DNA of 64,000 nt, taken from positions 3,973 to 67,972 of IMG/VR virus record IMGVR_UViG_3300011116_000709. One strand, 5' to 3'. A program made the translations under genes and the position numbers. The notes below the pieces were generated by a model that had not been told where the DNA came from, did no database searches, and was given only the letters and a program-made list of their open reading frames with translations. The DNA comes from a virus. This document shows, piece by piece, positions 62,416-62,793 of this stretch; position 1 is the first letter of the stretch, and each line of letters opens with the position of its first letter.

Positions 62416-62446
62416 AACAAAGAGGGGACGGCATTTCTGCCGTCCC
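62415..62446 (-). terminator. Rho-independent terminator ending the tmRNA transcript
   Basis: GGGACGGCA-GAAA-TGCCGTCCC followed by CTCTTTGTTT. Confidence 0.8.
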
Positions 62447-62793
62447 GTCCTGCCCGTTCAGATGCGGGTGGGCTTCCCCCACGGCTTCAAGCCGCCATTG
62501 CCATTCTGTTGGCAATTATGGTTTACAACTGGTTTTTGACGAGGCGAGTTGCCTACCCCGAATGCCTCTTGCTTCTGTACTCCACGCCAGTCGAGTGCCT
62601 GTACAGCCCCAAGAAGGTTAGGATGGATTACACCATCTGTTCGGCTGTGTCGGTCAATTCAGTAGACCGTTTTACGCCGATGCGAGTCTTGTCAACTCCG
62701 CGTGTTCACACCACGCCGCTAACCGTTTGAAGTGGAGCCGAGGGGAGTCGAACCCCTGTCCTGATCGTGTTTCTATCCGCCGTCAACAGCATT
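62425..62793 (-). ncRNA. ssrA: Circularly permuted (two-piece) tmRNA
   Basis: Acceptor piece ...GACAGGGGTTCGACTCCCCTCGGCTCCA (to 62733) precedes the coding piece GGGGCTGTACAGGCACTCGAC (from 62610). G3-U70 pair; tag GCC AAC AGA ATG GCA ATG GCG GCT TGA after ATAATT. Confidence 0.9.
62616..62724 (-). ncRNA. tRNA-like cloverleaf inside the tmRNA intervening segment
   Basis: GGTTAG/CTAACC closing stem plus GCGTG/CACGC, GAGT/ACTC, TCGGC/GCCGA with CGGTC/GACCG, and GATGG/CCATC arms. Confidence 0.6.

What the first reader, a model, noticed from the sequence alone, without database searches (positions are those of the whole stretch)
62425..62793. Phage-encoded circularly permuted two-piece tmRNA with a short ANRMAMAA tag
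Seen: on the minus strand the 3' half of the tRNA-like domain (GAC AGGGG TTCGACT CCCCT CGGCTCC A) comes first and the 5' half (GGGGCTG...TCGAC) comes about 120 nt later. The halves pair into a 7-bp acceptor stem with the alanine determinant G3-U70. CTGGCGTG/CACGATCAG and GCATT/AATGC give a helix-2-like join. A resume context ATAATT|GCC opens ANRMAMAA-stop (62513-62487), followed by a terminator. Known: permuted ssrA occurs in alphaproteobacteria and some cyanobacteria and betaproteobacteria, and tags ending in AA target ClpXP. Inference: the phage carries its own ribosome-rescue RNA in a permuted, compact form. No smpB is present in this window.
Basis: partly seen in the sequence, partly recalled or inferred. 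Interest (0 to 1): 0.9.

Follow-up and report, generated by a model that had tools for sequence, protein, structure and literature searches.

The report
Phage two-piece tmRNA with tRNA-shaped spacer
An uncultured T4-like phage really does carry its own split ("two-piece") ribosome-rescue RNA, a kind already known from aquatic phages, but the stretch between the two halves is a conserved tRNA-shaped RNA module that also sits in front of ordinary one-piece tmRNA genes in related phages.

Summary
ARAGORN calls a permuted tmRNA with tag ANRMAMAA. Rfam tmRNA_permuted scores 71.1 bits against a cut-off of 47 at 62487-62793, minus strand. The contig is a T4-like myovirus fragment.

Fourteen distinct relatives all keep G3-U70, the discriminator A and an 8-codon tag frame, with synonymous changes. 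Nearly every helix shows compensatory changes. The gene is therefore real and under selection. No smpB is present.

The kind is already published: Buchholz 2022 reports 53 two-piece tmRNA structures among 18,146 phage genomes.

Two points are new here. First, this short-tag family reaches the cut-off of none of the alpha, beta or cyano models, apart from one subclade on alpha, and matched no named phage. Second, the 122-nt "gap" holds a 109-nt cloverleaf-shaped RNA (62616-62724). All 308 cells pair across 11 sequences, and 6 pairs show double changes. The module lies 4-13 nt before tmRNA G1 in permuted genes and also in standard one-piece genes. Close relatives lack it. Its role is inferred only.

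The parts
62415..62793 (-). Whole permuted tmRNA transcription unit: acceptor piece, spacer with tRNA-shaped module, coding piece, terminator and U-tract
   Evidence: ARAGORN tmRNA* at 62396-62823. RF04321 at 62487-62793, 71.1 bits. Terminator scan.
62733..62793 (-). Acceptor piece (gene-proximal). It holds the 3' strands of the P2 helices (AAUGC 62793-62789; ACG 62768-62766; CAG 62763-62761), the T-arm (62757-62741), the 3' acceptor strand (62740-62734) and the discriminator A (62733). The 5' end is not determined. No CCA is encoded.
   Evidence: Rfam alignment. Across 14 relatives: T-arm 70/70 cells paired, acceptor stem 97/98, P2 outer helix 70/70 with double changes in 5 of 5 pairs.
62611..62732 (-). 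Intervening segment, 122 nt: 8-nt linker CUUCAAAC, the 109-nt module, then 5-nt linker UUCUU
   Evidence: Family members have spacers of 6, 12, 122-134 or 165-173 nt.
62616..62724 (-). tRNA-shaped structured RNA module. P1 is 62724-62719 with 62621-62616. The D-like hairpin is 62716-62712 with 62704-62700. The anticodon-arm-like hairpin is 62698-62694 with 62688-62684, with a 5-nt loop. The long variable-arm-like stem is 62680-62676 with 62645-62641, and 62669-62667 with 62653-62651. The T-arm-like hairpin is 62637-62633 with 62626-62622.
   Evidence: MFE -41.8 kcal/mol, z -3.2, 0 of 200 shuffles as stable. RNAalifold finds 28 pairs. 224/224 and 308/308 cells pair, with 6 pairs double-changed against 1.8-2.1 in shuffles (0 of 500). 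Its model aligns arm by arm to tRNA-Ser genes.
62416..62610 (-). Coding piece. It holds the 5' acceptor strand (62610-62604), P2 5' strands (62590-62561), PK1, the tag ORF, a post-ORF pseudoknot and the terminator. The 3' end is inferred from the terminator.
62525..62560 (-). Pseudoknot PK1. S1 is 62560-62555 with 62545-62540. S2 is 62552-62548 with 62529-62525.
   Evidence: S1 has 84/84 cells paired with 3 double-changed pairs. The first 5 pairs of S2 are 70/70. A sixth candidate S2 pair is not conserved, at 2 of 14.
62487..62513 (-). Tag reading frame GCC AAC AGA ATG GCA ATG GCG GCU UGA, giving ANRMAMAA-stop. The resume context is AUAAUU|GCC.
   Evidence: ARAGORN. The 8-codon frame is kept in 14 of 14 relatives as A-[N/E]-x-[M/L]-A-[M/I]-A-A, with synonymous codons at positions 1, 2, 4, 7 and 8.
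62481..62516 (-). Two hairpins that enclose the tag. AUUGCCA/UGGCAAU (62516-62510 with 62503-62497) covers the resume codon. GCGGCU/AGCCGU (62495-62490 with 62486-62481) places the stop codon in its 3-nt loop.
   Evidence: 96/98 and 84/84 cells paired, with 1 and 2 double-changed pairs.
62452..62482 (-). Post-ORF pseudoknot (PK2-like). S1 is GUGGG/CCCGC (62482-62478 with 62468-62464). S2 is GCCC/GGGC (62473-62470 with 62455-62452).
   Evidence: S1 is invariant at 70/70. S2 is 51/56 with double changes in 4 of 4 pairs.
62425..62446 (-). Intrinsic terminator hairpin GGGACGGCA-GAAA-UGCCGUCCC, followed by CUCUUUGUUU
   Evidence: L096 has a different but still pairing stem in this place.
62408..62415 (-). 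T4-type late-promoter-like TATAAATA for the next gene (ATG at 62390). It marks the end of the tmRNA unit.
   Evidence: all 4 of 4 exact sites in the window lie 8-18 nt upstream of ORF starts.

Best explanation
This is a functional, phage-encoded two-piece tmRNA (ssrA) gene of an uncultured T4-like myovirus.

Shown by sequence and comparison: the gene order is 3' tRNA-like half, spacer, then 5' tRNA-like half with the mRNA-like part. The two halves pair through a 7-bp acceptor stem carrying G3-U70 and through three P2 helices. A pseudoknot (PK1) precedes a conserved 8-codon tag frame, ANRMAMAA. A second pseudoknot and an intrinsic terminator follow. All of these are maintained by compensatory changes in 14 relatives.

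Inferred from established tmRNA and tRNA biology: one precursor is made. RNase P cuts 5' of G62610. The acceptor piece is trimmed to A62733 and receives CCA from the host enzyme, because CCA is not encoded. Host AlaRS charges the RNA through G3-U70. Host SmpB delivers it to stalled ribosomes. Translation resumes at GCC and adds (A)ANRMAMAA, which marks the protein for host proteases.

The 109-nt module in the spacer is a conserved cloverleaf-shaped RNA without a usable anticodon loop. It most likely acts as a tRNA-like processing unit that tRNA-maturation enzymes excise, separating the two pieces and possibly surviving as a small stable RNA. Close relatives manage with spacers of 6-12 nt, so the module is dispensable for tmRNA function as such.
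For: Detection: ARAGORN permuted call with tag. RF04321 scores 71.1 bits against 47.

Phage context: portal, sheath, terminase, gp6-like wedge and gp32, on an IMG/VR viral record.

Family size: 12 of the 77 related contigs searched carry an above-threshold permuted tmRNA.

Conservation in 14 distinct members:
- G3-U70 in 14/14 and discriminator A in 14/14.
- Acceptor stem 97/98 cells paired; T-arm 70/70.
- P2a 41/42; P2b 41/42; P2 outer helix 70/70 with 5 of 5 pairs double-changed.
- PK1-S1 84/84; tag hairpin 96/98; stop hairpin 84/84.
- PK2-S2 51/56 with 4 of 4 pairs double-changed.
- Tag always 8 codons, with synonymous variation.

Module:
- z -3.2.
- 308/308 cells paired; 6 double-changed pairs against 2.1 +/- 0.9 in shuffles (0 of 500) and 0-1 in slid controls.
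- Its model's 13 weak hits are all tRNA or tRNA-like genes. Six coincide within 1 nt with ARAGORN tRNAs, five of them tRNA-Ser.
- It aligns arm for arm with tRNA-Ser.
- All 13 complete metagenomic copies are followed by a tmRNA 5' end within 5-13 nt.

Metatranscriptome contigs from 4 studies cover the RNA. In X18, depth is 34 over 62439-62745 and 0 on both protein-coding flanks. This is only a weak hint of a stable RNA.
Against: - No experiment or raw-read data show the transcript ends, CCA addition, charging or tagging. One search used contigs only, and DNA carry-over cannot be excluded.
- No smpB is present in the contig (about 37% complete) or in 5 relatives, including one rated 100% complete. 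Function therefore depends on an unidentified host's SmpB.
- The host is unknown.
- PK3 and PK4 are absent.
- One relative, L096, has a U-C mismatch in the acceptor stem.
- For the module, Rfam's tRNA model gives no hit at E <= 10, and ARAGORN calls no tRNA there.
- The module's acceptor-like stem has 6 bp rather than 7. Long forms carry a 15-17-nt insert in the T-like loop. Cleavage by RNase P or RNase Z is therefore an inference from shape.
Confidence: 0.8

Rival explanations
1. The RNA is a decoy, not a tagger. It binds host SmpB or ribosomes to shut down host trans-translation, as proposed for the TLD-only tmRNA of mycobacteriophage DS6A. The 'tag' is never translated.
For: Phages lack smpB. 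A TLD-only phage form that inhibits tmRNA is described in passages of PMC4131195 and PMC11915505. The tag is unusually short.
Against: The 8-codon frame, the resume context, PK1 and the stop codon are conserved in 14 of 14 members. There are synonymous codon changes (GCC/GCU, CUG/CUA/UUA, GCG/GCU/GCC) and conservative replacements only at positions 4 and 6. A decoy would not need these. Part of the synonymous pattern is also explained by the two hairpins that overlap the frame, so the argument is strong but not absolute.
Confidence: 0.07
2. The gene is an inactive relic. It is a piece of host ssrA captured by a phage, or an attachment-site fragment, with no present function.
For: tmRNA 3' ends are common prophage attachment sites. 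The exact T-arm/acceptor 29-mer occurs in 10 other viral contigs as host-type standard tmRNAs (3) or bare end fragments (7).
Against: Both halves, PK1, the tag and the terminator are complete. About 20 base pairs show compensatory double changes across contigs of 38-49% G+C. The RNA is much better conserved than the flanking coding sequence.
Confidence: 0.03
3. The spacer module is a selfish or mobile RNA/DNA element, or an independently useful tRNA mimic (for example a decoy for a host tRNA-directed defence). It merely uses the slot in front of tmRNA G1 and has no role in tmRNA maturation.
For: Presence is patchy within subclades: the window and L098 have it, while L095 and L096 at about 90% flank identity do not. 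It is 89% identical between the window and L146, although those tmRNA bodies are only 62-65% identical. It occurs in both standard and permuted genes. Earlier unchecked notes of this scan describe phage tmRNA spacers as a slot for passengers.
Against: No copy was found away from a tmRNA 5' end. All 13 complete metagenomic copies, and all viral copies, precede G1 by 4-13 nt. It has no ORF. The searches required a 20-21-nt conserved block, so divergent copies elsewhere could have been missed.
Confidence: 0.25
4. The module is a ligand- or protein-sensing leader (riboswitch-like) that controls formation or processing of the tmRNA 5' end. This would be analogous to the glutamine riboswitch reported next to the ssrA of phage Melnitz.
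For: A riboswitch associated with a phage two-piece ssrA is published (PMC9004378). The module has invariant unpaired blocks (GUAAAAC, GACAAAG) and a constant position just upstream of G1.
Against: No Rfam riboswitch family hits the region at E <= 10. There is no alternative terminator/antiterminator pairing between the module and G1, because the linker is only 5-13 nt. The overall shape is a tRNA cloverleaf.
Confidence: 0.08

Closest known systems
Two-piece (permuted) ssrA of aquatic myophages: OM43 phage Melnitz, Pelagibacter phages, some cyanophages (Buchholz et al. 2022, PMC9004378; passages read)
   Same: A phage-encoded, circularly permuted tmRNA in a T4-like aquatic myovirus with no phage smpB. 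It sits among tRNA genes and is detected by ARAGORN as permuted.
   Different: Those genes are reported as alphaproteobacterial-type, and in Melnitz the gene is accompanied by a glutamine riboswitch. The family here reaches no lineage model's cut-off, apart from one subclade at 58.5 bits against 50 on alpha. It has an 8-codon tag and no glnA-type hit, and many members carry a tRNA-shaped spacer module. BLAST found no counterpart in 50,697 named phage records.
Bacterial two-piece tmRNAs of Alphaproteobacteria (Caulobacter), a betaproteobacterial group and picocyanobacteria (Rfam RF01849, RF01850, RF01851; merged TLD model RF04321; PMC11915505, passages read)
   Same: The same gene permutation. 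The break lies downstream of the tag. The acceptor stem and P2 are formed between two RNAs. RF04321 scores 71.1 bits against 47.
   Different: On the window: alpha gives no candidate, beta 34.3 bits against 84, and cyano 25.8 against 70 on the TLD only. On compact relatives the best fit is beta, at 44.8-66.2 against 84. CCA is not encoded, and only two pseudoknots are present.
One-piece tmRNAs of phages (mycobacteriophage Bxz1 group, Bacillus phage G; PMC4131195, passages read) and the standard-form relatives found here (L146, L233, L236, L240)
   Same: Phage-borne ssrA without smpB. L146, L233 and L236 carry the same tRNA-shaped module 4-6 nt before G1. L146 has a short tag that reads ANRRLALAA by eye.
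   Different: The gene order is standard and the PK2-PK4 region is present. The tmRNA body is only 62-65% identical to the window's.
tRNA-like processing units and small stable RNAs co-transcribed with tRNAs: spacer tRNAs in rRNA operons, mascRNA-type tRNA-like 3' processing signals, and the two small stable RNAs of the T4 tRNA cluster (recalled from memory, not taken from any call)
   Same: A cloverleaf-shaped RNA embedded in a stable-RNA precursor, where RNase P and RNase Z would cut on either side.
   Different: The anticodon loop is unusable (5-nt GAsAA loop). The acceptor-like stem has 6 bp. The variable arm is very long, at 45-95 nt. Rfam's tRNA model and ARAGORN do not recognise it. Its function is untested.

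Membership tests
tmRNA, permuted/two-piece form (Rfam RF04321) | Covariance-model score at or above the gathering score | tested here: met
   71.1 bits against 47, E 1.2e-11, model positions 1-213 of 213. The same result was obtained on the whole contig.
tmRNA, permuted/two-piece form (Rfam RF04321) | tRNA-like domain: 7-bp acceptor stem with G3-U70, discriminator A, and a T-arm with GGUUCGAnUCC | tested here: met
   Read directly. G3-U70 is kept in 14/14 relatives, discriminator A in 14/14, and T-arm cells pair in 70/70.
tmRNA, permuted/two-piece form (Rfam RF04321) | Circular permutation: the 3' half of the TLD lies upstream of the 5' half on the same strand, and the two are joined by P2 pairing | tested here: met
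   ARAGORN flags the gene as 'Permuted'. The P2 helices show compensatory changes: the outer helix is 70/70 with 5 of 5 pairs double-changed.
tmRNA, permuted/two-piece form (Rfam RF04321) | Pseudoknot PK1 upstream of the resume codon, and a tag ORF that starts with an Ala codon and ends in hydrophobic-Ala-Ala plus a stop | tested here: met
   PK1-S1 is 84/84 and PK1-S2 is 70/70 over 5 pairs. The tag is A-[N/E]-x-[M/L]-A-[M/I]-A-A in 14/14 members.
tmRNA, permuted/two-piece form (Rfam RF04321) | Processing into two RNAs, CCA addition, alanylation, SmpB binding and tagging activity | not testable with these tools
   Only Logan contigs of RNA libraries were available. Contigs cannot show RNA ends.
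Lineage-specific two-piece types (alpha RF01849, beta RF01850, cyano RF01851) | Score at or above that model's gathering score | tested here: not met
   Window: alpha gave no candidate; beta gave 34.3 bits against 84; cyano gave 25.8 against 70. Five compact relatives: alpha at most 24.3 against 50; beta 44.8-66.2 against 84; cyano 38.7-49.4 against 70. The exception is subclade member L234, which scores 58.5 against 50 on alpha.
tmRNA-SmpB system encoded together | smpB gene (Pfam PF01668) in the same genome | tested here: not met
   There were 0 matches in the 67,972-bp contig (about 37% complete) and 0 of 5 relatives, including one rated 100% complete. This is expected for phage ssrA, which relies on host SmpB.
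tRNA (Rfam RF00005), for the spacer module | Recognised by tRNA models, with a 7-nt anticodon loop and a 7-bp acceptor stem | tested here: not met
   There was no RF00005 hit in 62614-62726 at E <= 10 and no ARAGORN tRNA call. The loop has 5 nt and the acceptor-like stem 6 bp.
tRNA-like structure, for the spacer module | Cloverleaf architecture: a closing stem plus D-, anticodon-, variable- and T-like arms in tRNA order | tested here: met
   Five of the six counted helix segments show at least one double-changed pair. The module's model hits tRNA genes end to end (6 of 13 weak hits are ARAGORN tRNAs; the other 7 are tRNA-like). It aligns arm for arm with tRNA-Ser.
Melnitz-type ssrA with glutamine riboswitch | glnA/glutamine riboswitch motif in or next to the ssrA gene | tested here: not met
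   No riboswitch family apart from one weak chance-level Moco fragment (12.9 bits, E 5.7) in 62200-63000 at E <= 10.

The most novel reading that the evidence does not exclude
The tRNA-shaped module is a previously undescribed class of phage stable RNA tied to tmRNA 5' ends, and its position records how this gene family arose.

A standard phage unit of 'module + one-piece tmRNA', as still seen in L146, L233 and L236, duplicated in tandem and lost its outer halves. That would leave 3' half, module, 5' half, which is exactly the arrangement in the window.

This would be a further, phage-born origin of two-piece tmRNA, independent of the alpha, beta and cyanobacterial lineages. The module would later have been deleted in some sublineages, giving the 6-12-nt spacers.
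Probability: 0.2. Interest if true: 0.7.

Novelty: new variant of a known kind. Interest (0 to 1): 0.45.

Why it matters
The tmRNA itself adds one more well-supported example of large aquatic phages bringing their own ribosome-rescue RNA while relying on host SmpB. It defines a compact subfamily, with an 8-residue tag and two pseudoknots, that the lineage-specific models do not capture and that ARAGORN often misses.

The more useful result is the spacer. A strongly conserved cloverleaf-shaped RNA sits immediately before tmRNA G1 in both permuted and standard phage genes. This gives three things:

1. A concrete, testable case of tRNA-like 'punctuation', or of a hitch-hiking small RNA, inside a stable-RNA precursor.
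2. A natural with/without series of relatives for testing what the spacer does.
3. A marker that could show whether gene permutation of tmRNA happened inside phages.

None of this bears on anything harmful. It is basic RNA biology of environmental phages.

Tried and rejected
1. Exact T-arm/acceptor 29-mer in viral contigs. The 10 hits were host-type standard tmRNAs (3) or bare end fragments (7), so the string is not specific to this gene.

2. A 14-mer from the module. It returned more than 120 hits and was capped, roughly the chance level for a collection that size. This scan was wasted. Only 5 loci proved real by BLAST.

3. The same 20-base block in bacterial genomes. It gave one hit (L231), which has no element around it and is a chance match. 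The host question stays open.

4. Named phages. No match was found for the window's locus or L148's. For L146 there were only three 27-33-nt T-arm matches.

5. A sigma-70 promoter inside the spacer, which I suspected by eye from TTGACA. The scan found none there. The only promoter-like site in 61900-63500 lies inside the coding piece and is below the shuffle expectation.

6. RNA evidence. All runs are kept as contigs, so RNA ends, strand and level cannot be read. Parts without cover mean nothing.

7. The X18 joint 62745 -> 62439 with 3 extra letters. It looks like a circular path of about 310 nt and fits no expected mature end. It may be a graph tangle at the widely shared T-arm, or a tandem copy. 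It is left unexplained.

8. Testing descent from an L146-like standard tmRNA by body identity. The figures were 62-65% to L146 against 52-65% to alpha-like phage forms, which does not discriminate.

9. ARAGORN on relatives. It called only 8 of 14 loci and 3 of 22. It misses long-spacer genes and one member with an acceptor mismatch, so I relied on Rfam and my own alignments.

10. Hand-typed coordinates were wrong for L227 and L228. I redid the alignment from computed coordinates.

11. Earlier findings by place and by sequence returned nothing.

12. Pfam and PHROGs on the ORFs flanking the tmRNA found no family.
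Full report
**What is there**

On the minus strand of 62793-62415 lies a complete, circularly permuted tmRNA gene. ARAGORN calls it as tmRNA*, 62396-62823, with tag ANRMAMAA*. Rfam's tmRNA_permuted model (RF04321) matches 62487-62793 end to end, at 71.1 bits against a gathering score of 47 and E 1.2e-11.

Read directly, the gene has these parts:
- The T-arm is AGGGG-UUCGACU-CCCCU (62757-62741).
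- The 3' acceptor strand is CGGCUCC (62740-62734), with discriminator A at 62733.
- After 122 nt comes the 5' acceptor strand GGGGCUG (62610-62604).
- The stem has 7 pairs, with G3-U70 and a U6-G67 wobble.
- CUU follows the discriminator, so CCA is not encoded.

The standard tmRNA model aligns each half separately, at 35.4 and 19.1 bits. That is what a permuted gene should do.

**Context**

The window is bases 3973-67972 of a 67,972-bp IMG/VR viral record, estimated about 37% complete. It encodes a portal, scaffold, sheath, large terminase, gp6-like wedge and other baseplate proteins, and gp32. Its G+C content is 42-49%.

The portal matches 2,592 phage records, all below 60% identity. The best, at about 53%, are T4-like cyanomyoviruses. 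This is therefore a distant, uncultured T4-like myovirus whose host is unknown.

The tmRNA lies among tRNA genes; there are six in the window. The stop codon of a small upstream ORF (62792-62983) overlaps the first helix. An intrinsic terminator (62446-62425) is followed at 62415-62408 by TATAAATA. All 4 of 4 exact copies of this T4 late-promoter motif in the window lie 8-18 nt before ORF starts. The tmRNA unit therefore ends at the terminator.

**Is it selected?**

Using a GMP-reductase-like gene 2 kb away as an anchor, 201 related stretches were found in viral contigs and 80 loci were kept. RF04321 was run over the whole contigs behind 77 of them, since 3 were not held. Twelve had an above-threshold permuted tmRNA. 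Further members came from pattern scans.

Fourteen distinct members of the window's own clade were aligned. Pairs were defined on the window and counted:
- Acceptor stem: 97/98 cells paired.
- T-arm: 70/70.
- P2a: 41/42.
- P2b: 41/42.
- P2 outer helix: 70/70, with double changes in all 5 pairs.
- PK1 stem 1: 84/84, with 3 pairs double-changed.
- PK1 stem 2: 70/70 over 5 pairs. A sixth candidate pair is not conserved (2/14).
- Hairpin over the resume codon: 96/98.
- Hairpin with the stop codon in its 3-nt loop: 84/84.
- Post-ORF pseudoknot: stem 1 invariant at 70/70; stem 2 at 51/56, with double changes in 4 of 4 pairs.

G3-U70 and the discriminator A are present in 14 of 14. The tag is always 8 codons plus a stop. 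The variants are ANRMAMAA (1), ANRLAMAA (3), ANELAMAA (4), ANYMAMAA (3), ANRMAIAA (2) and AEPMAMAA (1), with synonymous codons at positions 1, 2, 4, 7 and 8.

One member (L096) has a U-C mismatch in the acceptor stem.

**Known or new?**

Phage-encoded two-piece tmRNAs are already published. Passages of Buchholz et al. 2022 (PMC9004378) describe a two-piece ssrA in OM43 phage Melnitz. They count tmRNA in 402 of 18,146 phage genomes, giving 133 unique structures, of which 53 are two-piece and 50 of those come from aquatic sources. They also report that 17 of 47 Melnitz-like contigs have permuted tmRNA.

[quoted passage not shown] The 2014 paper lists phages with one-piece ssrA and a TLD-only form (PMC4131195, passages).

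Unchecked notes of this scan also list many phage two-piece tmRNAs. The kind is therefore not new.

**What is particular to this family**

The lineage-specific models do not accept it.
- On the window: alpha gives no candidate, beta 34.3 bits against 84, and cyano 25.8 against 70 on the TLD only.
- On five relatives with 6-12-nt spacers: alpha at most 24.3 against 50; beta 44.8-66.2 against 84, full length in 4 of 5; cyano 38.7-49.4 against 70.
- One subclade member (L234) passes alpha at 58.5 against 50.

BLAST of the window's and L148's loci against 50,697 named phage records found nothing. I could not see the supplementary tables of the two papers, which may list members.

**SmpB**

Pfam SmpB finds nothing in the contig. 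It also finds nothing in 5 relatives that carry a permuted tmRNA, one of them rated 100% complete. The search rings in 10 of 14 control genomes. The RNA must therefore use host SmpB. This is inferred.

**The spacer is not a gap**

Spacer length in the family is 6 nt (3 members), 12 nt (2), 122-134 nt (3) or 165-173 nt (6). L095 and L096, whose flanks are about 90% identical to the window's, lack 118 nt that the window and L098 have.

The inserted part is conserved. It recurs in other subclades and, at 89% identity over 121 nt, in L146. In L146 it lies 6 nt upstream of G1 of a standard one-piece tmRNA (RF00023, 117.9 bits).

Three more standard-form genes carry it: L233 (119.8 bits), L236 (131.7 bits) and L240 (80.5 bits, cut by the contig end). 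L146 and L233 are 91% identical to each other. They share several 30-55% identical proteins with the window's tRNA region, so they are distant relatives of the window phage.

The position is constant. In 19 metagenome contigs found with a 20-base block, all 13 complete copies are followed by a tmRNA 5' end within 5-13 nt. The viral and metagenome collections overlap, so these counts are not independent of the viral ones. The one hit in bacterial genomes is a chance match.

**Structure of the module (62724-62616)**

Alone it folds to -41.8 kcal/mol, with z -3.2, and 0 of 200 shuffles are as stable. RNAalifold on 8 distinct sequences gives 28 pairs in six helical segments.

On that alignment 224/224 cells pair. 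Six pairs show double changes, against 1.8 +/- 1.0 in shuffles (0 of 500 reach it) and 0-1 in slid controls. On 11 distinct sequences aligned to the model, 308/308 cells pair, again with 6 double-changed pairs. That second alignment is fitted to the model and so leans towards the structure.

A covariance model of the module (R1) finds the true copies at 113-133 bits. Below these it finds only 13 weak hits, at 15-23 bits. Six coincide within 1 nt with ARAGORN tRNA genes: five tRNA-Ser and one tRNA-Asn. The other seven are an unannotated tRNA-like gene of another phage group.

The alignment to tRNA-Ser runs arm for arm:
- The closing stem matches the acceptor stem.
- The first hairpin matches the D-arm.
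- The second hairpin matches the anticodon arm.
- The long stem matches the variable arm.
- The last hairpin matches the T-arm. It is 5 bp with loop UGCAAAU, where tRNAs have UUCGAAU.

The module is still not a tRNA. Rfam's tRNA model and ARAGORN do not call it. The closing stem has 6 pairs. The 'anticodon' loop is a 5-nt GAsAA. The variable arm is 45-95 nt long. Long forms carry an insert in the T-like loop. It has no ORF.

I found no description of such a module in four literature searches.

**How it most likely works**

Shown: the architecture and its conservation.

Inferred from established tmRNA and tRNA processing (two-piece tmRNAs are made from one precursor cut by tRNA-processing enzymes, per passages):
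- One precursor runs from upstream of 62793 to the terminator.
- The halves pair.
- RNase P cuts before G62610.
- The acceptor piece is trimmed to A62733 and receives CCA.
- AlaRS charges it through G3-U70.
- Host SmpB brings it to stalled ribosomes.
- Translation resumes at GCC 62513 and stops at UGA 62489-62487.
- The C-terminal ...MAA tag then directs proteolysis. The ClpXP preference for such ends is recalled, not tested.

The module, being tRNA-shaped and flanked by 8- and 5-nt linkers, is most simply a unit excised by the same enzymes. It would separate the pieces and might persist as a small RNA of about 110 nt. Because relatives do without it, it is an accessory.

The module is far better conserved than the tmRNA bodies around it, at 89% against 62-65%. 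This points either to a function of its own or to movement between genes.

**Origin**

The accepted model for permuted stable-RNA genes is tandem duplication followed by loss of the outer halves (passages of PMC3978253). If the ancestral unit was 'module + standard tmRNA', as in L146, the model predicts exactly the window's order. This is attractive but untested, because body identities do not discriminate.

**RNA evidence**

Near-identical sequence is held by runs of 16 studies. Four metatranscriptome runs, kept as contigs, were laid.
- Contigs bridge the module with both halves in X15, X16 and X17.
- In X18 a 341-nt contig of depth 34 covers 62439-62745, while both protein-coding flanks have none.
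- That same contig closes on itself (62745 -> 62439 plus 3 letters), which I cannot explain.

Contigs cannot show ends or exclude DNA, so this is only a weak hint of a stable RNA.

**Verdict**

The observation and the core interpretation are right. The kind is known. The specific family and its tRNA-shaped spacer module are the new part.

Noticed in passing
window 58323-58585 (-): The group I intron (Rfam RF00028, 64.3 bits, 58381-58561) lies inside a tRNA gene. By the usual group I splice-site rules (recalled from memory), the spliced loop would more likely read CUUUUAA, i.e. tRNA-Lys(UUU). This is not resolved.
   Followed up: partly
window 56708-57700 (-) and 59316-60377 (-): A 330-aa adenylosuccinate-synthetase homologue matches PHROG 1211, '2-aminooxy adenylosuccinate synthetase' (PurZ-type), at E 4e-65. 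Next to it is an IMPDH/GMP-reductase-fold protein. The phage may therefore make 2-aminoadenine (Z) DNA.
   Followed up: no
window 62439-62745, run X18: A metatranscriptome contig (341 nt, depth 34.3) joins 62439 back to 62745 with 3 extra letters, and its two ends overlap by 30 nt. It behaves like a circular path of about 310 nt covering the module and the coding piece. It could be a graph tangle at the widely shared T-arm, a tandem copy, or a circular or chimeric RNA.
   Followed up: no
L042:1569-1652, L051:1061-1144, L053:1519-1602, L055:1835-1918, L056:1605-1675, L061:1838-1921: An unannotated tRNA-like gene of about 84 nt occurs in a group of phage contigs of about 40-66 kb. It has a T-arm reading GGUGCAAAUCC, the same odd T-loop as the spacer module. 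ARAGORN calls only one of the six distinct copies, and only at relaxed settings.
   Followed up: partly
L146:4010-4077, L233:3260-3327, L236:8492-8559: Pistol self-cleaving ribozymes (RF02679, 53.5-60.6 bits) lie about 2.2-2.9 kb from the standard-form tmRNA in the phages that carry the module in front of a one-piece tmRNA.
   Followed up: no
L101, L102, L103 (tags ANDDVYDMALAA, ANDDAFYGEVRLAA) and L104: More distant relatives, one on a 197-kb contig rated 100% complete and one on a 287-kb contig with terminal repeats, carry alphaproteobacterial-looking two-piece tmRNAs (RF04321, 93-148 bits). These have encoded CCA and stem-closed spacers of about 81 nt that also show paired changes by eye. 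ARAGORN's tag for L104 probably starts too early.
   Followed up: partly
window 13909-13916, 17627-17634, 44906-44913, 62408-62415: All four exact TATAAATA motifs lie 8-18 nt upstream of ORF starts. The count is 4, against 1.43 expected, and 6 of 100 shuffles reach 4. This fits T4-type late promoters. In the AT-rich tmRNA subclade (L093, L094, L097) the same motif lies 26 nt before the tmRNA's first helix, while the window has CTAAATAT at that place.
   Followed up: partly
window 54490-55350 (-): A 286-aa protein has an S-adenosylmethionine-lyase-family domain (Pfam PF23780, E 2e-11) and DUF3293. It is a possible anti-restriction SAM lyase.
   Followed up: no
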